From a virus: 64,000 bases of DNA. Made by a program: the position numbers and the translations under genes. The first letter of the stretch is position 1, and each line of letters opens with the position of its first letter. The DNA lies in IMG/VR virus record IMGVR_UViG_3300018080_000129, positions 39,501 through 103,500 of that record, one strand, 5' to 3'. The notes under the pieces were generated by a model that worked only from the letters and a program-made list of their open reading frames with translations, was not told where the DNA came from and searched no databases. This document shows, in pieces, positions 44,970-53,706 of this stretch.

Positions 44970-47900
44970 TTAGAAGAACCTAAATGAATGGAGTCTTGCT
45001 TTTGAAGAACCACCAGCATCCTTCATCACCTGAATTTCAAAAATTGCTGCATCTGCTGGCAGGTTCGTCAACGTTGTGTCTTCATAAATTGCCATTACAT
45101 CTGATGTCCAAGAAATACTGGCAATCTCATTGTTATTTGTCACGTCATAAACTCGAAGCGTTACTGTTCCACTTGTTCCATTTCTTGAAGCAATAATGTT
45201 CATCGTAGTTGCTGTAACTTCGTTTGTCCCATTATACCAAAATTCTGCCGCTGCTTGCCATGTTGTAGAATTATACTCAACATAAGCTGTTGATGAAGTA
45301 TAGAACGACGTGCAAAACAAAGCACGTGAGTAAGACAAATCAGTGCCTTGATAACCCTGATTGCCTTGGTTGCCCTGCCAACCCTGATTACCTTGAAATC
45401 CTCTAAAACCTTGCCAACCTTGGAATCCTCTAAAACCTTGCCAACCCTGATTTCCTTGAGGGCCAACAATTCCTTGCCAACCTTGATTCCCCTGATAACC
45501 AATATCACCCTGCCAACCTTGCGCTCCCTGATTTCCAGTCTCACCTACTTCGCCTTGGAAACCTTGCCAACCTTGATTTCCTTGAGAACCCGTATCGCCT
45601 ATATTACCTTGCGGCCCTTGCCAGCCCTGATTACCCTGTACGCCATCAGAGCCTATGTCACCTTGTGGCCCCTGTACGCCATCGGCTCCCACGTCACCCT
45701 GCCAACCCTGATTTCCTTGGACACCAGTGTCACCGATGTCACCCTGATTTCCCTGATAACCAATGTCACCCTGATTTCCTTGAACGCCAGTATCACCAAT
45801 GTCACCTTGCGGCCCTTGTACTCCTATTTCTCCTTGTAAACCTTGCCAGCCTTGATTTCCTTGATTACCCTGAACACCATCAGAACCTATGTCACCCTGT
45901 GGCCCTTGAACACCGTCAACCCCAATGTCGCCTTGTGCGCCTTGATAACCAATATCTCCTTGATTACCTTGATTGCCTTGGACACCGATTTCGCCTACAT
46001 CTCCTTGGAATCCTTGGTCGCCTTGATAACCTATGTCACCCTGCCAACCCTGATTGCCTTGAACCCCCGTATTACCAGTGTCACCCTGAAGTCCTTGCCA
46101 ACCTTGTGGCCCCTGAACACCATCAACACCGATGTCACCTTGCCAACCCTGAACACCTTGTACGCCTGTTTCACCTACATCGCCCTGATTTCCTTGGCGT
46201 CCCTGATTCCCTTGCGTTCCATCAATACCTTGGTCGCCCTGCCAACCCTGATTACCCTGAAAACCAACATCTCCCTGATTTCCTTGGACACCAGTTTCGC
46301 CTATGTCACCTTGCGGCCCTTGAACGCCGTCAACACCAATGTCACCCTGTGGCCCTTGGACGCCAGTATCACCTATATCACCTTGTGGCCCTTGTGTGCC
46401 CGTGTCACCAGTGTCACCCTGAAGCCCTTGCCAACCCTGTGCGCCTTGCAAACCAGTATCGCCAACATTACCCTGATTGCCTTGCGCACCCTGAACACCT
46501 GTATCGCCAGTGTTTCCTACATTTCCTTGTGGGCCTTGAACACCCGTATCACCAGTATTTCCTACTTCACCTTGTGGGCCTTGTACTCCCTGAACACCAT
46601 CAGAACCAATATTGCCTTGCCAACCTTGACTGCCTTGATTTCCTTGTACGCCGTCAGAGCCGATGTCACCTTGTGGGCCTTGAACACCGTCAACACCGAT
46701 GTCTCCCTGCCAGCCCTGATTGCCTTGTACGCCGTCAGCACCAACGTCTCCTTGGAATCCTTGGTCGCCTTGATAACCTATATCACCTTGCCAACCCTGA
46801 TTTCCTTGAACACCCGTATCACCAGTATCACCCTGTAAACCTTGTGGGCCTTGGAAACCAATATCGCCCTGATTGCCTTGGACACCATCTTGTCCTACAT
46901 CACCCTGCCAACCTTGAACACCTTGGAAACCAGTATCGCCCACATCGCCCTGATTTCCCTGTACGCCTTGAACACCGTCAAGACCAATCGCACCTTGAAA
47001 TCCTTGACGACCTTGATTTCCTTGTGGGCCTATATCTCCTATGTCACCCTGATTGCCCTGAACACCGTCATTACCCTGCGGCCCCTGAACACCGTCAGCA
47101 CCGATGTCACCTTGGAATCCTTGTTCGCCTTGCCATCCTTGTGGGCCTTGCCATCCTTGCGGTGAGTAACCCTGTGGCCCCAAGTAACCCTGATTGCCCT
47201 GATAACCTTGAGAGCCAACATCACCCTGAAAACCTTGCGTTCCATCAATACCGGCAGGCCCTTGAGAACCCTGATTTCCCGTCCCTTCAATACCTTGTGG
47301 GCCTATGTCACCCTGCCAGCCCTGATTGCCTTGGACACCCGTATCACCAGTATCACCCTGTAAACCTTGTGGGCCTTGGAAACCAGTATCACCAACATCC
47401 CCCTGATTACCTTGGACACCCTGAATCCCTGTGTCCCCTACCGCACCTTGACTTCCTTGGCGTCCTTGATTTCCTTGAACTCCATCTTGTCCTACATCAC
47501 CCTGCCAACCTTGAACACCTTGTACGCCGTCAGCACCAATATTTCCTTGTGGCCCTTGAACTCCATCAGCACCAACATCACCCTGTGGCCCTTGAACACC
47601 GTCAATACCGATGTCTCCCTGTGGCCCTTGAACCCCGTCAATACCGATGTCACCTTGAGGCCCTTGAACTCCATCGGCACCGATGTCTCCCTGTGGCCCC
47701 TGAACACCGTCAATACCGATGTCTCCCTGTGGCCCCTGAACACCGTCAATACCGATGTCACCTTGATTTCCCTGTGCGCCCTGAACGCCAATTCCAATTG
47801 CGCCTTGCCAACCTTGCCAACCCTGATTACCCTGAACACCATCCTGTCCTACGTCTCCCTGCCAACCTTGAGCACCTTGAAGACCAGCAGAGCCTACATC

Positions 47901-50036
47901 GCCCTGATTTCCTTGGCGTCCCTGATTCCCTTGCGTTCCATCAATACCTTGGTCGCCCTGCCAACCTTGAACACCCTGTACGCCATCAGAGCCTATGTCA
48001 CCTTGTGGCCCCTGTACGCCATCGGCTCCCACGTCACCCTGTGGCCCTTGAACACCGTCAGAACCCGTGTTTCCTTGAAATCCTTGGTCGCCCTGCCAAC
48101 CTTGAACACCCTGTACGCCATCAGAGCCTATGTCACCTTGATTTCCTTGGAAACCAGTCTCTCCTTGCACACCCTGAACACCAGTATCGCCAATGCTACC
48201 TTGAAAACCTTGACGGCCTTGCGCACCTTGGTTTCCAGTAACACCTACAGCACCTTGATTACCTTGCGCCCCTTGTACGCCATCAAAGCCAATGTCACCT
48301 TGGAATCCTTGTGCCCCTTGTACGCCGTCAAAACCTATATCTCCCTGATTGCCTTGGTTGCCCTGAACACCATCAATGCCTTGGTCGCCCTGCCAGCCCT
48401 GTGCGCCCTGAACACCTGTTCCCTGATAGCCCTGTGCTCCTTGGAAACCAATATCACCCGCGACACCCTGATTTCCTTGAACACCATCGACGCCAATATC
48501 TCCCTGCCAACCTTGAACTCCTTGCGCTCCAGTATCGCCAATGGCTCCCTGATTACCCTGACGACCTTGAAAACCATCGGCACCATCTGCACCAATATCT
48601 CCCTGATTACCCTGATTTCCCTGAACACCATCGACACCAATGTCTCCTTGTGGGCCTTGAACACCATCAGAACCGATGTCTCCCTGTACGCCCTGAACAC
48701 CATCGGCTCCGATGTTTCCTTGTGGGCCTTGAACACCATCGGCTCCGATGTCTCCTTGTGGGCCTTGCCTTCCTTGCGCTCCTGTGTCACCCGCGTTACC
48801 CTGAAATCCCTGACGACCCTGATTGCCTTGAACTCCGTCGGCTCCGATATTCCCCTGCGGGCCTTGCCAACCTTGAGGAGAGTATCCTTGTGGCCCTAAG
48901 TAACCCTGATTGCCCTGATAACCTTGTGAACCAACATCGCCCTGAGCACCCTGCGTTCCATCAATACCGGCAGGCCCTTGAGAACCTTGCTGTCCTATGC
49001 CAACATTACCCTGATTTCCCTGTGGGCCAAGGTCGCCAACATCTCCTTGATTTCCCTGTACCCCATCATTACCTTGCGGGCCGACATCTCCAAGACCCTG
49101 CCAACCTTGAGCACCTTGAACTCCATCAACGCCTATATCTCCTTGCGGGCCTTGAACACCGTCAACACCGATGATTCCTTGATTGCCCTGCCAACCTTGA
49201 TTTCCTTGAGCACCTGTCTGCCCGACGTTTCCTTGGCTCCCCTGCCATCCCTGAACACCCGTGTCGCCAATGGCTCCCTGATTGCCTTGCCGTCCCTGAT
49301 TTCCCTGAACACCATCCGCTCCAGTGTTTCCTTGCGGGCCTTGAACGCCATCGACGCCAACCGGCCCCTGCCAACCCTGATTTCCCTGCGCTCCGAGAGT
49401 GCCCGCCCCATAATCGTACCAGATAACATCCAGAAAATGATTCCAATCGAGGTTTTTGAACATCCTCGATACAGCAACAAAAGCAAGGTCGATGTCGGCA
49501 GTCGAAGTGAAATTGTAAGCGGATTCAACACCGCCATTCCACGTGTACCAGCCTATCGTGTAAGTGCCAGCAGCGAAACTCAAACGACCGTAAACCGCAT
49601 TACCGCTGCCGTCGGTTATCGGGTCGCCGGAATCATGGTCTCGAATGAAAATACGATAAGCTCTGGTCGAGTCAACGATGACGCCTTCAACCGTCGAGGA
49701 ACCTTGACCATTGTTATGATTCGTGATGCCTTTAATCGCACCATCAAACACGGTCGTGCTGGTTCCCGCTCCTATCGTGACGTTCTCAAAAGCGGCTTGA
49801 TGCAACGCCTCCATCAGGAACTTGTCAGCCAGTTCCTTCATGGAAAGTTCGGCAGGGTCATACCAATCGGGTTCTCCAATGAGATTTTTCAGGAGTGTGC
49901 GCAAGACATTCAAGTCGCCTTCAATATTGACTTGGCCTTCCGCGACAGCCACAGTATGAACGGCTGCAATCGTGTCATCGTAAGTTGCCGAAGCCGCAAC
50001 CTGAATTGCCTGTCTGAGAATGCTCGTATCACCCAT
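44970..50036 (-). CDS. collagen-like fibre protein (1688 aa)
   Basis: About 1350 aa of near-continuous Gly-X-Y (GxQ alternating with GD[IVT]) between globular N- and C-terminal domains. Confidence 0.9.
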   Translation of the reverse strand: MGDTSILRQAIQVAASATYDDTIAAVHTVAVAEGQVNIEGDLNVLRTLLKNLIGEPDWYDPAELSMKELADKFLMEALHQAAFENVTIGAGTSTTVFDGAIKGITNHNNGQGSSTVEGVIVDSTRAYRIFIRDHDSGDPITDGSGNAVYGRLSFAAGTYTIGWYTWNGGVESAYNFTSTADIDLAFVAVSRMFKNLDWNHFLDVIWYDYGAGTLGAQGNQGWQGPVGVDGVQGPQGNTGADGVQGNQGRQGNQGAIGDTGVQGWQGSQGNVGQTGAQGNQGWQGNQGIIGVDGVQGPQGDIGVDGVQGAQGWQGLGDVGPQGNDGVQGNQGDVGDLGPQGNQGNVGIGQQGSQGPAGIDGTQGAQGDVGSQGYQGNQGYLGPQGYSPQGWQGPQGNIGADGVQGNQGRQGFQGNAGDTGAQGRQGPQGDIGADGVQGPQGNIGADGVQGVQGDIGSDGVQGPQGDIGVDGVQGNQGNQGDIGADGADGFQGRQGNQGAIGDTGAQGVQGWQGDIGVDGVQGNQGVAGDIGFQGAQGYQGTGVQGAQGWQGDQGIDGVQGNQGNQGDIGFDGVQGAQGFQGDIGFDGVQGAQGNQGAVGVTGNQGAQGRQGFQGSIGDTGVQGVQGETGFQGNQGDIGSDGVQGVQGWQGDQGFQGNTGSDGVQGPQGDVGADGVQGPQGDIGSDGVQGVQGWQGDQGIDGTQGNQGRQGNQGDVGSAGLQGAQGWQGDVGQDGVQGNQGWQGWQGAIGIGVQGAQGNQGDIGIDGVQGPQGDIGIDGVQGPQGDIGADGVQGPQGDIGIDGVQGPQGDIGIDGVQGPQGDVGADGVQGPQGNIGADGVQGVQGWQGDVGQDGVQGNQGRQGSQGAVGDTGIQGVQGNQGDVGDTGFQGPQGLQGDTGDTGVQGNQGWQGDIGPQGIEGTGNQGSQGPAGIDGTQGFQGDVGSQGYQGNQGYLGPQGYSPQGWQGPQGWQGEQGFQGDIGADGVQGPQGNDGVQGNQGDIGDIGPQGNQGRQGFQGAIGLDGVQGVQGNQGDVGDTGFQGVQGWQGDVGQDGVQGNQGDIGFQGPQGLQGDTGDTGVQGNQGWQGDIGYQGDQGFQGDVGADGVQGNQGWQGDIGVDGVQGPQGDIGSDGVQGNQGSQGWQGNIGSDGVQGVQGPQGEVGNTGDTGVQGPQGNVGNTGDTGVQGAQGNQGNVGDTGLQGAQGWQGLQGDTGDTGTQGPQGDIGDTGVQGPQGDIGVDGVQGPQGDIGETGVQGNQGDVGFQGNQGWQGDQGIDGTQGNQGRQGNQGDVGETGVQGVQGWQGDIGVDGVQGPQGWQGLQGDTGNTGVQGNQGWQGDIGYQGDQGFQGDVGEIGVQGNQGNQGDIGYQGAQGDIGVDGVQGPQGDIGSDGVQGNQGNQGWQGLQGEIGVQGPQGDIGDTGVQGNQGDIGYQGNQGDIGDTGVQGNQGWQGDVGADGVQGPQGDIGSDGVQGNQGWQGPQGNIGDTGSQGNQGWQGFQGEVGETGNQGAQGWQGDIGYQGNQGWQGIVGPQGNQGWQGFRGFQGWQGFRGFQGNQGWQGNQGNQGYQGTDLSYSRALFCTSFYTSSTAYVEYNSTTWQAAAEFWYNGTNEVTATTMNIIASRNGTSGTVTLRVYDVTNNNEIASISWTSDVMAIYEDTTLTNLPADAAIFEIQVMKDAGGSSKARLHSFRFF
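45345..49400 (-). repeat. collagen Gly-X-Y coding repeat with internal block duplications
   Basis: 9-bp periodicity; the block GSQGPAGIDGTQG...GYLGPQGYSPQGWQGPQG appears twice (about 47140-47280 and 48860-49000). Confidence 0.9.
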
Positions 50037-50694: not shown

Positions 50695-50721
50695 AAAAAA
50701 AATCAGGCCGAAGCCTGATTT
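50695..50721 (-). terminator. intrinsic terminator closing the RNA operon
   Basis: AAATCAGGC-TTCG-GCCTGATTT followed by a T run. Confidence 0.8.
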
Positions 50722-50794: not shown

Positions 50795-50887
50795 TGGTAG
50801 CGGAGACAGGAGTCGAACCTGCTATCTTCGGCTTATGAGACCGACATGGTTAGAGGAAATTTCCTCGTTCCGTTCCACTCCTCCGCA
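50795..50887 (-). tRNA. tRNA-Met(CAU), initiator-like, with enlarged D-loop (93 nt)
   Basis: Acceptor TGCGGAG/CTCCGCT plus ACCA, anticodon arm TCGGT-CTCATAA-GCCGA, T arm GCAGG-TTCGACT-CCTGT, 25-nt D-loop. Confidence 0.8.
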
Positions 50888-50893
50888 TCATTG

Positions 50894-51262
50894 TCATTCT
50901 TCCACAACCTTGCAGACTAACTTTTGCACTTTCACTTTGGGAGTCCCTTCCTCACCAAGATACTTCTCTCTCAGTCCTTCCATTTTCGTGCGATACTTAT
51001 AGGCAGGGGCACCGTAGCCTGCATACCTTTCCAATCCCTGCCTGTGTGCGCTTCCTCGAATCTCATGGTAGAAATTGATGAGAGCCGTAATCTCAGCCGC
51101 CATCTCCCAAGGCTGTTGAAACCGATAGCCTTCAATCTTATGCTCTGACTTCTTCGGCTTTACCACAACCACCATGTTATGGAAGCGTATCTTGTTCTCT
51201 TTCTGAAAGAGGGCTGCCTGCTTGATTTCTTCCTTGACCTTCCGAATCGTTTCTCTATCCAT
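50894..51262 (-). CDS. hypothetical helical protein downstream of the Pth-like gene
   Basis: AAGGAG RBS; start MDRETIRKVKEEIK. Confidence 0.7.
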   Translation of the reverse strand: MDRETIRKVKEEIKQAALFQKENKIRFHNMVVVVKPKKSEHKIEGYRFQQPWEMAAEITALINFYHEIRGSAHRQGLERYAGYGAPAYKYRTKMEGLREKYLGEEGTPKVKVQKLVCKVVEE

Positions 51263-51353: not shown

Positions 51354-51680
51354 TCAGCCCTCCTTCCATACTTTGAATTTTGAAAGAACATTACGCCTGT
51401 CCGAGTCGATAGGTTCGGTGGCAAGCGCAGTCGCCTGACAATCCAAGTCAGGCTCACAAAACATCACCGTCCTGATGTCTTGATGGCGTAGGTAGTATTC
51501 AATTCTCTTGAGATGTTCTTCGGCCTTTGCCTCGCAGATAACGACCGAAGAGATTGGGTCTGTCTCCTTGCAGAACTTCTTGCCCGATTCGTGCGCTGCA
51601 TGTACCGCTTGGCAAAGCTGAACGGCGACCGGCAGGTCTTTTCGGACAAAGACGAAAAAGTGTTTCTGTACCTACGACAT
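51354..51680 (-). CDS. Pth2-like peptidyl-tRNA hydrolase with in-frame TAG at codon 3 (not in ORF track)
   Basis: AAGGAG RBS, then MS*VQKHFFVFVRKDLPVAVQLCQAVHAAHESG...VVICE...FCEPDLDCQATALATEP...LSKFKVW. VRxDL, QxxHA and EPD...TA are Pth2-fold motifs. Confidence 0.75.
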
Positions 51681-51697
51681 TTTTCTCTCCTTTCAAA

Positions 51698-51774
51698 TGG
51701 TAGCGGGAGTCGGATTCGAACCGACGACCTTGAGGTTATGGGCCTCACGAGCTACCAGACTGCTCCATCCCGCA
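51698..51774 (-). tRNA. tRNA-fMet(CAU)
   Basis: TGCGGGATGGAGCAGTCTGGTAGCTCGTGAGGCCCATAACCTCAAGGTCGTCGGTTCGAATCCGACTCCCGCTACCA; 1:72 mismatch, initiator-type D arm. Confidence 0.92.
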
Positions 51775-51788
51775 CCATTCCAATCAAA

Positions 51789-51862
51789 TCTCTCACTGGC
51801 CGAAGATAACCATCTCAGGCGTGTGAGGAGGACGAAAGAGAGGAGTATCAACCAGTGAGAGA
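51789..51862 (-). ncRNA. stem-loop RNA with pyrimidine-rich loop
   Basis: TCTCTCACTGGTTGA...TCGGCCAGTGAGAGA 15-bp closing stem. Confidence 0.5.
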
Positions 51863-51873
51863 AAGTAAAAGAA

Positions 51874-51969
51874 GATTCAGTACCGATGGTCGAAGAGAGA
51901 ACATACGTGGTAAACCACGTCTCAATATAGATTGAATTGAAGTAACTCTCTTCTGGAGCGTACTGACTC
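51874..51969 (-). ncRNA. Y-RNA-like motif, copy with two small hairpins
   Basis: TCAGTAC-GCTCCA-GAAGAGAG-TTACTTC...CTCTCTTC-GACCATCG-GTACTGA. Confidence 0.7.
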
Positions 51970-52005
51970 CTTTCTTTTCGCTTCACCACACTTTCACTTT
52001 TCTTT

Positions 52006-52037
52006 CTTTCAACCCACACTTTCGCAAGGAAAGTGAA
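52006..52037 (-). CRISPR. solitary type I-C-like CRISPR repeat
   Basis: TTCACTTTCCTTGCGAAAGTGTGGGTTGAAAG: 32 nt, 7-bp hairpin, 3' TGGGTTGAAAG tail. Confidence 0.45.
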
Positions 52038-52043
52038 AAGAAA

Positions 52044-52180
52044 GCCGATACCAATAGTCGCAAAGAGAAATTTTACGTGTGCTATCTTTTACACTACTCC
52101 CCATCAAAGTTGGGGAGGCAGGAGTTGCACCTGCACCACGTCCGTATGATGGAAGTAACTCTTCGCTGGAGCGTATCGGT
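52044..52180 (-). ncRNA. YrlA-like Y RNA with circularly permuted tRNA domain
   Basis: Shared scaffold enclosing T arm GCAGG-TGCAACT-CCTGC, loop-closed acceptor stem CTCCCCA/TGGGGAG, TA linker and D arm GTG...CAC. Confidence 0.8.
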
Positions 52181-52489: not shown

Positions 52490-52518
52490 ATTATACCATT
52501 TTCGACAGACTTTTTCAA
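52490..52518 (-). promoter_or_regulatory. sigma70-type promoter of the RNA operon
   Basis: TTGAAA-17 nt-TATAAT with extended -10 TG. Confidence 0.75.
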
Positions 52519-52641: not shown

Positions 52642-53706
52642 TCAAGATACAAAACTGACAACTTTAAGCAAGGAAGAACAATCTGCCTTGCCACTAACCC
52701 TGCCACTCTCCCATTGAATAGCATCTGGAAACATCTTCTTCAAACCAAGAAAAACCTTCTTGTTTATCTCGAAGAAGCTCTCATCAGGATACTGCTCATG
52801 GAAAAGTTTCAACTTGGCCGTCTTCTTTGGATGTCTCCAGCCGGTAATCTCGACGTATAGTTCAAAGTCAGGCAAGTAAAGGTCGGGCAAGTATGAATCT
52901 ACTGTTTCCCCCGCTTGCCGCAAATAGAACTTTCTCGGTTCGTAGAGATACTTGATGCCAAAATATTTCAGAAGGCGACAAACATCGGCCTCCCAAGTGG
53001 AGCGAACGAAATGACCAATGTCTAAACGATAGCCTGACTTTCCAACTCCAGAACCCTTAGCTGGCTTGTGACCAACTATCTTTTTCGCTTGCGCTGCTAC
53101 CTTCTTGCTTGTCTCCTTCGTTAAACCTTTATTCCAAGGGCCACCATGCTTTTCAGCATTAACTTTGCCACCTTGAGAAGACCAACGCTTTCGCTGCTCC
53201 TTAGTATATCTCCTGTTAATTGTTTTTCTTGCTTTTCGAGCAGACTCCTTTGTAGTTTTCGGCAAAGAAAGAGCCTGCTGTTTCAACCGTCCAGCATATT
53301 CAGAGTCGTTCTTGATTCTTTCACGTTTTGCCTTGGATATTCTCTCAGCCCAATCCTTGCTCTCTTTCGGGCACTTCTTGTGCCACAACGAGATTTTCTT
53401 ACCTCGCTGCTTTTTCTCCTTCGCGGAGAGTCCAGCATGATACTCCGTCATATACTGGCATCGAATTTCCGCAAGACCCTTATTCATACACTCCGAGGAA
53501 CAATATGTCCTTCCTTTTCTTACCTCACAAGGACGAACCTGAACCATCTTGCCACAATATTTGCAAGTGAATGTCGCTCTCTTAATCTTCGCCAAGCCAG
53601 TGCATTTGAAAGAACAATACTTGCCAAGACCCTTCGCAACTTTGTAACGCAGGGCCTCAAATTCTTTACCGCAATAATGACAGTTGACTTTGACAAGACC
53701 TGACAT
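52642..53706 (-). CDS. putative homing endonuclease (Zn-finger repeats, NUMOD3-like, PD-(D/E)XK)
   Basis: CxxC...YCSxxC twice, PWNKGLTKET, RSTWEA...YEP...YLPDLYL...YVEITG. Confidence 0.75.
   Translation of the reverse strand: MSGLVKVNCHYCGKEFEALRYKVAKGLGKYCSFKCTGLAKIKRATFTCKYCGKMVQVRPCEVRKGRTYCSSECMNKGLAEIRCQYMTEYHAGLSAKEKKQRGKKISLWHKKCPKESKDWAERISKAKRERIKNDSEYAGRLKQQALSLPKTTKESARKARKTINRRYTKEQRKRWSSQGGKVNAEKHGGPWNKGLTKETSKKVAAQAKKIVGHKPAKGSGVGKSGYRLDIGHFVRSTWEADVCRLLKYFGIKYLYEPRKFYLRQAGETVDSYLPDLYLPDFELYVEITGWRHPKKTAKLKLFHEQYPDESFFEINKKVFLGLKKMFPDAIQWESGRVSGKADCSSLLKVVSFVS

What the first reader, a model, noticed from the sequence alone, without database searches (positions are those of the whole stretch)
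51354..51690. Hidden Pth2-like peptidyl-tRNA hydrolase gene gated by an amber codon at position 3
Seen: AAGGAG-N7-ATG TCG TAG, followed in frame by 105 open codons with Pth2-fold motifs (FVFVRKDL, QAVHAAHE, EPDL..QATALAT). No in-frame ATG precedes the first motif. TAG is a normal stop elsewhere in this genome (e.g. at 1919), so this is not genome-wide recoding. Known: AUG-NNN-stop minigenes promote peptidyl-tRNA drop-off and depend on Pth. Inference: the gene is expressed only when RF1 termination fails or a suppressor is present, acting as a sensor that supplies Pth under translation stress.
Basis: partly seen in the sequence, partly recalled or inferred. Interest (0 to 1): 0.87.

Follow-up and report, generated by a model that had tools for sequence, protein, structure and literature searches.

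The report
Amber-gated phage Pth2-like gene
A large phage keeps the stop codon UAG as the third codon of a small tRNA-hydrolase-like gene; about 84 diverged phage relatives do the same and most carry a matching stop-reading tRNA nearby, so the enzyme is probably made only when such a tRNA overrides the stop, although that tRNA is not on the third of this genome that is held.

Summary
On the minus strand, AAGGAG-N6-ATG TCG TAG (51692..51672) is followed in frame by 105 sense codons and TGA (51354). The next canonical start is 68 codons downstream.

The TAG is not an error. Contigs from three runs of three studies carry it. Among 90 distinct homologous loci, 84 have a start codon, 0-7 sense codons and then an in-frame stop.

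The stop type tracks the neighbouring suppressor tRNA. It is TAG in 82 loci, and 54 of these hold a tRNA(CUA). It is TGA in 2 loci, and both hold a tRNA(UCA). Two ungated homologues in complete genomes have no suppressor tRNA.

The product has a confident Pth2 fold (pLDDT 96, TM about 0.75). It lacks the canonical lysine, so its activity is unproven.

This phage uses the standard code; TAG ends 26 of 104 genes. No tRNA(CUA) lies on the 103.5-kb record, which CheckV rates 31% complete, so here the lock is seen but not the key.

Best reading (0.6): translation is gated by a phage suppressor tRNA.

This scan has found the same gate repeatedly on other DNA. I found no paper describing it. Papers on XacN1, RsoM2USA and phiKp24 leave the targets of their suppressor tRNAs unidentified.

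The parts
52490..52518 (-). sigma-70-like promoter match (TTGAAA-17-TATAAT with TG, 11 of 12); possible start of the transcription unit
   Evidence: This is a consensus match only; 3 were found against 2.3 expected in shuffles.
51698..51774 (-). tRNA(CAU), initiator-like. It has a U1.U72 mismatch, C33 and an encoded CCA, and its 3' end lies 5 nt before the SD of the gated gene.
   Evidence: ARAGORN; Infernal RF00005 58.6 bits. It does not resemble the CUA tRNAs of relatives.
51687..51692 (-). Shine-Dalgarno AAGGAG, 6 nt before the ATG
   Evidence: sequence
51675..51680 (-). two-codon leader ATG TCG (Met-Ser)
   Evidence: Homologues have a start codon plus 0-7 sense codons here.
51672..51674 (-). 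in-frame amber codon TAG (the gate), followed by G
   Evidence: TAG is conserved in 82 of 84 gated homologues, and the next base is a purine in 81 of 84.
51354..51671 (-). body of the Pth2-like ORF (105 codons) plus the TGA stop
50894..51262 (-). ORF-X, 122 aa of unknown function, conserved downstream neighbour of the gated gene
   Evidence: tblastn finds it downstream of the gene in 18 relatives' loci. No Pfam or PHROG family matches.
50795..50887 (-). degenerate tRNA-like element. It has a CAU anticodon arm, T arm, U1.U72 acceptor and CCA, but about 17 extra nt in the D region. It lies about 785 nt past the first codon after the TAG (its Infernal-matched core starts at +808), close to where several relatives have their tRNA(CUA) (+767 to +816).
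   Evidence: Infernal 20.2 bits, below the 29-bit cut-off; sequence; fold; offsets in relatives
50700..50721 (-). terminator-like hairpin plus T run; possible end of the unit
   Evidence: consensus match only

Best explanation
This is a Pth2-fold gene of a large, tRNA-rich phage whose translation is gated by an early in-frame UAG. Ribosomes start at the SD-ATG and decode one Ser codon, then meet UAG. Without a UAG-reading tRNA, RF1 ends translation after a dipeptide. With a suppressor tRNA(CUA), they read on and make a 108-residue Pth2-like protein. That tRNA is phage-encoded in nearly all relatives; in this phage it is presumed to lie in the roughly two thirds of the genome that is not held. 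Production of the enzyme is thus coupled to the presence and activity of the suppressor tRNA. Shown here: the gate, its conservation, its covariation with suppressor anticodons in relatives, the Pth2 fold, and standard-code use in this phage. Inferred: that a suppressor exists in this phage, that read-through occurs, which residue is inserted (Gln is hinted), and that the protein hydrolyses peptidyl- or acyl-tRNA, perhaps to clear by-products of suppression.
For: The gate is real: sequence and identical contigs in 3 runs.

It is conserved. Of 90 distinct homologous loci, 84 have a start codon, 0-7 sense codons and then an in-frame stop directly before the conserved strand. The leader codons vary, including all four ACN codons, while the TAG does not. 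Cultured phages are among these loci: ME3, Arash, fHe-Yen9-04, XacN1 and IkeLoa. By record length, Serratia BF, CBB and GAP32 are also included.

The key matches the lock. A matching suppressor tRNA lies in 56 of 84 gated loci, and in 10 of 12 loci with at least 9 kb of flank on both sides. The two TGA-gated loci (L071, L031) carry tRNA(UCA) and no CUA. No locus has only a mismatched suppressor.

The converse also holds. Ungated RaK2 (complete genome) and the record behind L015 (100% complete) have no suppressor tRNA.

The base after the stop is a purine in 81 of 84 loci, against a 0.57 baseline. From my own knowledge, this context favours suppression in E. coli.

Ungated family members often begin M-x-Q (14 of about 59). 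That is CAG where gated members have TAG.

The fold is Pth2: pLDDT 96.3, and the top 13 Foldseek hits are twelve Pth2-family chains at TM 0.72-0.77 (normalised by the query) plus Atu0240. The family profile hits PDB Pth2 at E 9e-6.

The record is about 31% complete, so a missing tRNA is expected to be possible.
Against: No tRNA(CUA) was found on the 103.5 kb held, which carries 30 other tRNAs. ARAGORN at two thresholds, a loop-and-stem regex and Infernal all agree. In 15 of 19 relatives that have a tRNA directly upstream of the gate, that tRNA is the suppressor; here it is a CAU tRNA.

TAG ends about a quarter of this phage's genes, so a strong suppressor would lengthen many proteins.

Nothing is experimental. 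There is no RNA, ribosome or protein evidence, and the tRNA's charging identity is unknown. The canonical Pth2 lysine is not conserved (V17 here), so the enzyme activity is uncertain. The loci are related sequences, so the counts are not independent events.
Confidence: 0.6

Rival explanations
1. The gate is an RF1-competition or stress sensor with no dedicated tRNA. Near-cognate read-through of the early UAG rises when RF1 is limiting or termination on the very short nascent chain is slow, and this supplies the enzyme under translation stress.
For: No tRNA(CUA) is on the held record. The stop is always RF1-specific UAG, or in 2 loci UGA, and never UAA. The stop sits 1-4 codons from the start in most loci; from my own knowledge, termination is inefficient and drop-off frequent there.
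Against: The stop type covaries with the anticodon of a neighbouring suppressor tRNA, and ungated homologues in complete genomes lack suppressors. A tRNA-independent sensor does not predict this. The record is only 31% complete.
Confidence: 0.14
2. The lock is a relic. This lineage lost its suppressor tRNA, the gene is now silent or nearly so, and it has not yet decayed. The degenerate tRNA-like element near the position where several relatives keep their suppressor could be a remnant of a reshuffled tRNA slot.
For: No tRNA(CUA) was found on 103.5 kb. A sub-threshold tRNA-like element with an abnormal D region lies close to where relatives have tRNA(CUA).
Against: The ORF has 105 codons with no further stop and keeps every invariant family residue (R10, Q21, H24, E73). 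The SD and ATG are intact. The tRNA-like element has a CAU, not a CUA, anticodon and resembles the upstream tRNA(CAU), not the relatives' suppressors. About two thirds of the genome is unseen.
Confidence: 0.12
3. The mechanism is termination-reinitiation, or non-canonical initiation just after the TAG. The ATG-NNN-TAG would be a tiny upstream ORF that loads ribosomes, and they restart on the next codons.
For: In 13 of 84 gated loci a canonical start lies between the stop and the conserved strand, for example IkeLoa ATG TAG GTG and L018 GTG CGT TAG ATG.
Against: In 71 of 84 loci, and in this window, there is no ATG, GTG or TTG there. The codon after the stop varies (GTA here; ATT, AAC, AAT, GAA, GGG, ACC in others). 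This model explains neither why the stop is never TAA nor why it matches the local suppressor anticodon.
Confidence: 0.08
4. The TAG is a sequencing or assembly error, or a recent pseudogene.
For: None beyond the stop itself.
Against: Three runs give identical contigs. The same feature occurs in 84 of 90 distinct homologous loci, cultured phages included.
Confidence: 0.02

Closest known systems
Archaeal/eukaryotic peptidyl-tRNA hydrolase Pth2 (Pfam PF01981; e.g. M. jannaschii MJ0051 2zv3, human Bit1/PTRH2 1q7s, S. solfataricus 1xty)
   Same: It has the same alpha/beta fold (TM 0.72-0.77, normalised by the query). The family profile hits Pth2 chains, and 41 of 70 family members match PF01981. 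The R-x-D-L and Q-x-x-H-A motifs are shared. PTH2 is already noted in jumbo phages (PMC7824862).
   Different: The window protein scores below the Pfam cut-off (16.4 against 23 bits). The 'GK' insertion that carries the canonical lysine is missing (V17 here, Q in the family consensus). The loop after the acidic residue is shorter. No activity data exist.
Stop-codon-recoded phages with phage-encoded suppressor tRNAs (TAG read as Gln; crAss-like, Lak and others; bioRxiv 10.1101/2021.08.26.457843, PMC7886860)
   Same: A phage tRNA that reads a stop codon is needed to translate phage genes, and timing control by that tRNA has been proposed.
   Different: There, many genes (often late or lytic ones) hold in-frame stops and TAG is not used as a terminator. 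Here the code is standard, TAG ends about 25% of genes, and a single small gene carries one stop at codon 3.
prfB (RF2) autoregulation through an early in-frame UGA (own knowledge)
   Same: An early in-frame stop in a translation-factor-type gene makes its output depend on how well that stop is recognised.
   Different: prfB needs a +1 frameshift at a slippery site with an internal SD, and it senses its own product. Here the frame continues in phase, and the partner appears to be a tRNA.
Lambda bar-type minigenes, AUG-NNN-stop (own knowledge)
   Same: An SD-AUG-one codon-stop unit, of the kind that releases dipeptidyl-tRNA and loads Pth.
   Different: bar minigenes stand alone and are not followed in frame by an ORF. 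Here the leader length varies from 0 to 7 codons, and the stop type follows a suppressor tRNA.
Engineered suppressor-tRNA feed-forward gates (PMC7969014, seen)
   Same: An amber codon in the target gene plus an inducible suppressor tRNA removes leaky expression, which is the same logic.
   Different: That system is synthetic. This would be a natural counterpart, kept across many phage lineages.

Membership tests
PTH2 (PF01981) | Sequence match above Pfam's gathering score | tested here: inconclusive
   The window protein scores 16.4 bits (E 0.011) against a cut-off of 23. However, 41 of 70 aligned family members match at E<0.01, the best at 6e-8, and the family profile hits PDB Pth2 at E 9e-6.
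PTH2 (PF01981) | Pth2 alpha/beta fold | tested here: met
   The AF2 model has pLDDT 96.3 and pTM 0.88. The top 13 Foldseek PDB hits are twelve Pth2-family chains (TM 0.72-0.77, normalised by the query, probability 1.0) plus Atu0240.
PTH2 (PF01981) | Catalytic Lys and Asp (K18 and D86 in S. solfataricus numbering, recalled from memory) | tested here: inconclusive
   In the HMM alignment the lysine of the 'GK' insertion falls on V17 (Q in the family consensus), so it is not kept. An invariant acidic residue, E73, and the nearly invariant D75 lie at the end of the equivalent strand. No residue-level structural superposition was available.
PTH2 (PF01981) | Hydrolysis of peptidyl-tRNA | not testable with these tools
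   This needs an enzyme assay or complementation of a pth(ts) strain.
Suppressor-tRNA-gated phage Pth2-like gene (the class seen by this scan) | SD and start codon, a few sense codons, an in-frame stop, then the Pth2-like ORF with no other start | tested here: met
   the same layout occurs in 84 of 90 homologous loci
Suppressor-tRNA-gated phage Pth2-like gene (the class seen by this scan) | Matching suppressor tRNA in the same genome | tested here: inconclusive
   None was found on the 103.5-kb record, but CheckV completeness is 31% and the tRNA array begins 478 nt from the record's end.
Stop-codon-recoded phage (TAG as sense, code 15) | TAG avoided as a terminator, and many genes open only when TAG is read as sense | tested here: not met
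   TAG ends 26 of 104 genes. Coverage by long ORFs is 0.823 under code 11 and 0.847 with TAG as sense, no better than with TGA as sense (0.849).
prfB-type programmed +1 frameshift | The downstream ORF lies in the +1 frame behind a slippery site | tested here: not met
   The ORF continues in the zero frame directly after TAG.

The most novel reading that the evidence does not exclude
Suppressor tRNAs of standard-code jumbo phages, whose targets published genome papers could not identify, have a conserved dedicated target: a Pth2-fold gene locked by an early stop of the matching type. tRNA and gene would form a natural translational switch or feed-forward circuit. The enzyme would be made in proportion to suppressor activity, perhaps to clear peptidyl- or acyl-tRNA by-products of read-through. 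In this phage the cassette has moved away from the tRNA array and sits between two initiator-like tRNA(CAU) elements.
Probability: 0.35. Interest if true: 0.85.

Novelty: new variant of a known kind. Interest (0 to 1): 0.72.

Why it matters
Papers on XacN1, RsoM2USA and phiKp24 each report a suppressor tRNA in a standard-code phage and either could not name a target or left one unidentified (PMC5852040, PMC8504454, PMC8386662). A conserved stop-gated gene whose stop matches the tRNA's anticodon gives that question a concrete answer that can be tested in cultured phages.

There is also a practical point for annotation. Gene callers miss or truncate this gene: it has no CDS in many GenBank records, it is split or shortened in Arash and ME3, and many database proteins for it begin inside the first strand.

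If the circuit works as inferred, it is a natural version of the amber-gate designs used in synthetic biology.

Tried and rejected
- **The search for related loci** with the single window protein found no relative in viral contigs. Alignment A1 was too diverse to search with.
- **Near-identity DNA search** of the phage collection matched only the tRNA. No locus shares more than two genes with this record, so no close, more complete relative was available to infer the missing tRNA.
- **Inserted amino acid:** guessing it by nearest-neighbour comparison of 55 suppressor tRNAs with 224 other tRNAs gave scattered, low-scoring isotypes and was dropped.
- **RnaseA match:** the Pfam RnaseA match (E 0.0013, below cut-off) is contradicted by the fold search and was set aside.
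- **The upstream tRNA(CAU) as a mutated suppressor, or TAG as an initiation codon read by an initiator tRNA(CUA):** rejected. The relatives' CUA tRNAs are ordinary elongator-like sequences unlike it, and the SD spacing fits the ATG.
- **Expression:** no RNA holder was listed among the sequencing runs, so nothing can be said about expression.
- **Strain variant:** one contig in X3 has 9 differences over 242 nt. It was too short to use for a selection test.
- **Literature:** five searches found no description of the gate. The library lacks most subscription journals.

Full report
**Observation**

The feature lies on the minus strand. The sequence reads CCA (3' end of a tRNA), TTTG, AAGGAG, AGAAAA, ATG TCG TAG GTA CAG AAA. 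The ATG is at 51680..51678 and the TAG at 51674..51672. After the TAG come 105 sense codons, then TGA at 51356..51354. The spacer between the SD and the ATG is 6 nt, not 7. There is no canonical start until codon 68 after the TAG.

**The TAG is neither an error nor recoding**

Contigs from three public runs of three studies (two sediment, one seawater) cover 51647-51957 with no differences. X1 may be the source sample, and X2 and X3 look alike, so this amounts to one or two independent confirmations.

The record uses the standard code. Long ORFs cover 82% of the coding strand under table 11. Reading TAG as sense helps no more than reading TGA as sense. TAG ends 26 of 104 genes of 100 aa or more, with a median of 12 open codons behind it. 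A scan of the whole 103.5-kb record for start-(0-3 codons)-stop followed by a long open frame found only this gene with an SD and no nearby start.

**Conservation**

tblastn against GenBank phages found 40 records, mostly jumbo phages, at 28-38% identity. Many have no CDS annotated under the match. Reading the DNA of six of them showed the same device:

| Phage | Start of the gene |
|---|---|
| Acinetobacter phage ME3 | ATG ACT TAG |
| Salmonella phage Arash | ATG CTG TAG |
| Yersinia phage fHe-Yen9-04 | ATG TCT CAC TAG |
| Xanthomonas phage XacN1 | ATG AAG TAG, in front of a longer fused ORF |
| Mycobacterium phage IkeLoa | ATG TAG GTG |
| Klebsiella phage RaK2 | ordinary ATG start |

I then collected 102 more loci from IMG/VR and metagenomes. 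I analysed all of them the same way: tblastn to fix the frame, a walk upstream to the first stop, and ARAGORN for tRNAs.

- Of 90 distinct loci with upstream sequence, 84 have a start codon (ATG 75, TTG 6, GTG 3), then 0-7 sense codons (one codon in 54), then an in-frame stop directly before the conserved first strand.
- The stop is TAG in 82 loci and TGA in 2. It is never TAA.
- The leader codons vary freely. With one codon, ACG occurs 22 times, ACT 7, ACA 5, ACC 5 and CTG 7. The stop does not vary.
- The base after the stop is a purine in 81 of 84 loci, against 0.57 for first codon positions in these ORFs. The sequences are related, so the nominal P of 1e-16 overstates the case.

**Lock and key**

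A suppressor tRNA whose anticodon matches the gate lies within the fetched flank in 56 of 84 gated loci. It lies there in 10 of 12 loci with at least 9 kb of flank on both sides. The two exceptions are XacN1-like, and the XacN1 paper reports two CUA tRNAs elsewhere in that genome, in the terminal repeats.

Both TGA-gated loci carry tRNA(UCA) and no CUA. L071 has ATG GGC GGA TGA, with the tRNA starting 127 nt before the first codon after the stop. L031 has a nine-codon leader, with the tRNA 4.6 kb upstream. No locus has only a mismatched suppressor.

The converse also holds. All tRNA matches in the complete RaK2 genome and in the 100%-complete record behind L015 were fetched, and neither record has a suppressor tRNA. 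These are the two best-sampled ungated homologues. This covariation is the main argument that the stop is decoded by a dedicated tRNA.

**The wider family**

A full HMMER scan finds 763 cluster representatives at E<=1e-3. Many predicted proteins start inside the first strand (MLVCGDL, VLVRQDL). That is what a gene caller produces when the true start is hidden behind a stop.

Others have ordinary N-termini, so gating is common but not universal. Of about 59 such ungated representatives, 14 begin M-x-Q (MTQ, MSQ, MDQ and so on). This mirrors the ATG-ACN/TCN-TAG of gated members, one transition away from CAG. It is a hint, not proof, that Gln is the residue inserted.

**What the protein is**

On its own the window protein misses the PF01981 cut-off (16.4 against 23 bits). 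The family evidence is stronger:

- 41 of 70 aligned family members match PF01981.
- The family profile hits solved Pth2 chains at E 9e-6.
- An AlphaFold model built on 70 sequences has pLDDT 96.3.
- Its top 13 PDB matches are twelve Pth2-family chains at TM 0.72-0.77 (normalised by the query), including human Bit1, plus Atu0240.

So the fold is Pth2. The two-residue 'GK' insertion that carries the lysine I recall as catalytic in archaeal Pth2 is absent (V17 here, Q in the consensus). An invariant Glu (E73) and the nearly invariant D75 occupy the place of the catalytic acid. I therefore call the protein Pth2-like and treat hydrolase activity as inferred.

**This window in particular**

The held record is an IMG/VR virus contig. 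It is linear, has no end repeats, and CheckV rates it 31% complete. It carries 29 tRNAs at C1:478-22786 plus one next to the gated gene, and none has a CUA, UCA or UUA anticodon. This holds for ARAGORN at default and relaxed thresholds, a regex for CUA loops with flanking stems, and Infernal. The array starts 478 nt from the record's end, so it may continue beyond it. Absence of the key is therefore uninformative, but it is the weakest point of the case for this phage.

The gene sits in what looks like a self-contained unit:

1. A strong promoter-like match (52518-52490).
2. About 700 nt without a convincing ORF, containing a long hairpin (about 51989-52055).
3. An initiator-like tRNA(CAU) with a U1.U72 mismatch and C33 (51774-51698).
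4. The gated gene.
5. ORF-X of 122 aa, a conserved downstream neighbour in 18 relatives' loci and of unknown function.
6. A degenerate tRNA-like element, also with a CAU anticodon, the same odd acceptor stem and CCA, but about 17 extra nt in the D region (50887-50795).
7. A terminator-like hairpin (50721-50700).

The degenerate element lies about 785 nt past the first codon after the TAG, and its Infernal-matched core starts at +808. Several relatives keep their tRNA(CUA) at +767 to +816. It does not resemble those tRNAs.

**Mechanism and rivals**

The best-supported reading is gating by a suppressor tRNA (0.6). A gate placed in the first few codons wastes only a di- or tripeptide when closed, and the purine after the stop fits efficient suppression.

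Why a Pth2-like enzyme should be the gated product is inference. A suppressor drives ribosomes past normal stops, and in this phage a quarter of genes end in TAG. That should create stalled complexes and released peptidyl-tRNA. Making a hydrolase in proportion to suppressor activity would be a feed-forward remedy.

The rivals are:

- A tRNA-independent RF1 or stress sensor (0.14). It fails to predict the covariation.
- A relic lock after loss of the tRNA (0.12). The ORF and all invariant residues are intact.
- Termination-reinitiation (0.08). In 71 of 84 loci no start codon is available.
- Error or pseudogene (0.02).

**Known or new**

Jumbo-phage PTH2 genes are known (PMC7824862), as are suppressor tRNAs in standard-code phages. 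But the XacN1 authors state they could not find the targets. They tested only read-through of terminal ambers. The RsoM2USA and phiKp24 papers leave the question open.

Five full-text searches found no description of an early-stop-gated Pth2 gene.

This scan has reported the same device many times on other DNA. My survey was run independently and agrees with those notes. What this window adds is a case where the lock is present without a visible key on a partial genome, in a cassette flanked by two CAU tRNA elements.

Noticed in passing
window 50795-50887 (-): A degenerate tRNA-like element. It has a CAU anticodon arm, a good T arm, a U1.U72 acceptor stem and an encoded CCA, but about 17 extra nt (including a GAGGAAAUUUCCUC hairpin) where the D arm should be. 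Infernal gives only 20 bits and ARAGORN misses it. It lies close to the offset downstream of the gated gene where several relatives have their tRNA(CUA).
   Followed up: partly
window 51698-51774 (-): The tRNA(CAU) whose 3' end lies 18 nt upstream of the gene's ATG (5 nt before the SD) resembles bacterial initiator tRNA. It has a 1:72 mismatch, but as U.U rather than C.A, only two of the three G:C pairs in the anticodon stem, and C33 instead of U33. The same record has a third CAU tRNA at C1:2051-2129.
   Followed up: partly
window 44970-50036 (-): A 1688-aa ORF made almost entirely of collagen-like G-x-x repeats (GVQGxQGxxG...) with a non-repetitive C-terminal domain. It is probably a fibre. 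GC rises to 0.54 across it.
   Followed up: no
window 52642-53706 (-): A 354-aa protein with several CxxC zinc-knuckle motifs at the N-terminus and a C-terminal match to phage endonuclease / Holliday-junction-resolvase PHROGs (phrog_9019, E 5e-18). It may be a homing-type endonuclease just upstream of the cassette.
   Followed up: partly
window about 51989-52055: A long near-perfect inverted repeat (CACTTTCACTTTTCTTTC ... GAAAGTGAAAAGAAAG) in the roughly 700-nt ORF-poor stretch between the promoter-like site and the tRNA. It produced only spurious Rfam hits.
   Followed up: no
L071 (9868-9990) and L031: Opal versions of the gate. L071 has ATG GGC GGA TGA with a tRNA(UCA) starting 127 nt before the first codon after the stop. 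L031 has a nine-codon leader ending in TGA with a tRNA(UCA) 4.6 kb upstream. L031's N-terminus (AQKHFFVFVR) is the closest to this window's.
   Followed up: yes
L002 (Salmonella phage Arash, OQ632216.1) 2807-2881 and 1325-1821: The GenBank record labels the tRNA here tRNA-Phe, but ARAGORN reads a CUA anticodon. The gated gene is annotated as two unrelated CDSs, with only the last 50 codons called peptidyl-tRNA hydrolase.
   Followed up: partly
L028 4047-4974: One IMG/VR jumbo-phage contig carries two tRNA(CUA) and one tRNA(UUA) within 1 kb, about 1-2 kb downstream of its amber-gated gene.
   Followed up: no
L004 / L037 / L040 / L090 (XacN1-like): In XacN1-like phages the Pth2-like domain is the C-terminal third of a 283-aa protein, and the gate (ATG AAG TAG, or ATG plus three codons plus TAG) sits at the start of the whole fusion. 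The N-terminal 180 aa were not examined.
   Followed up: no
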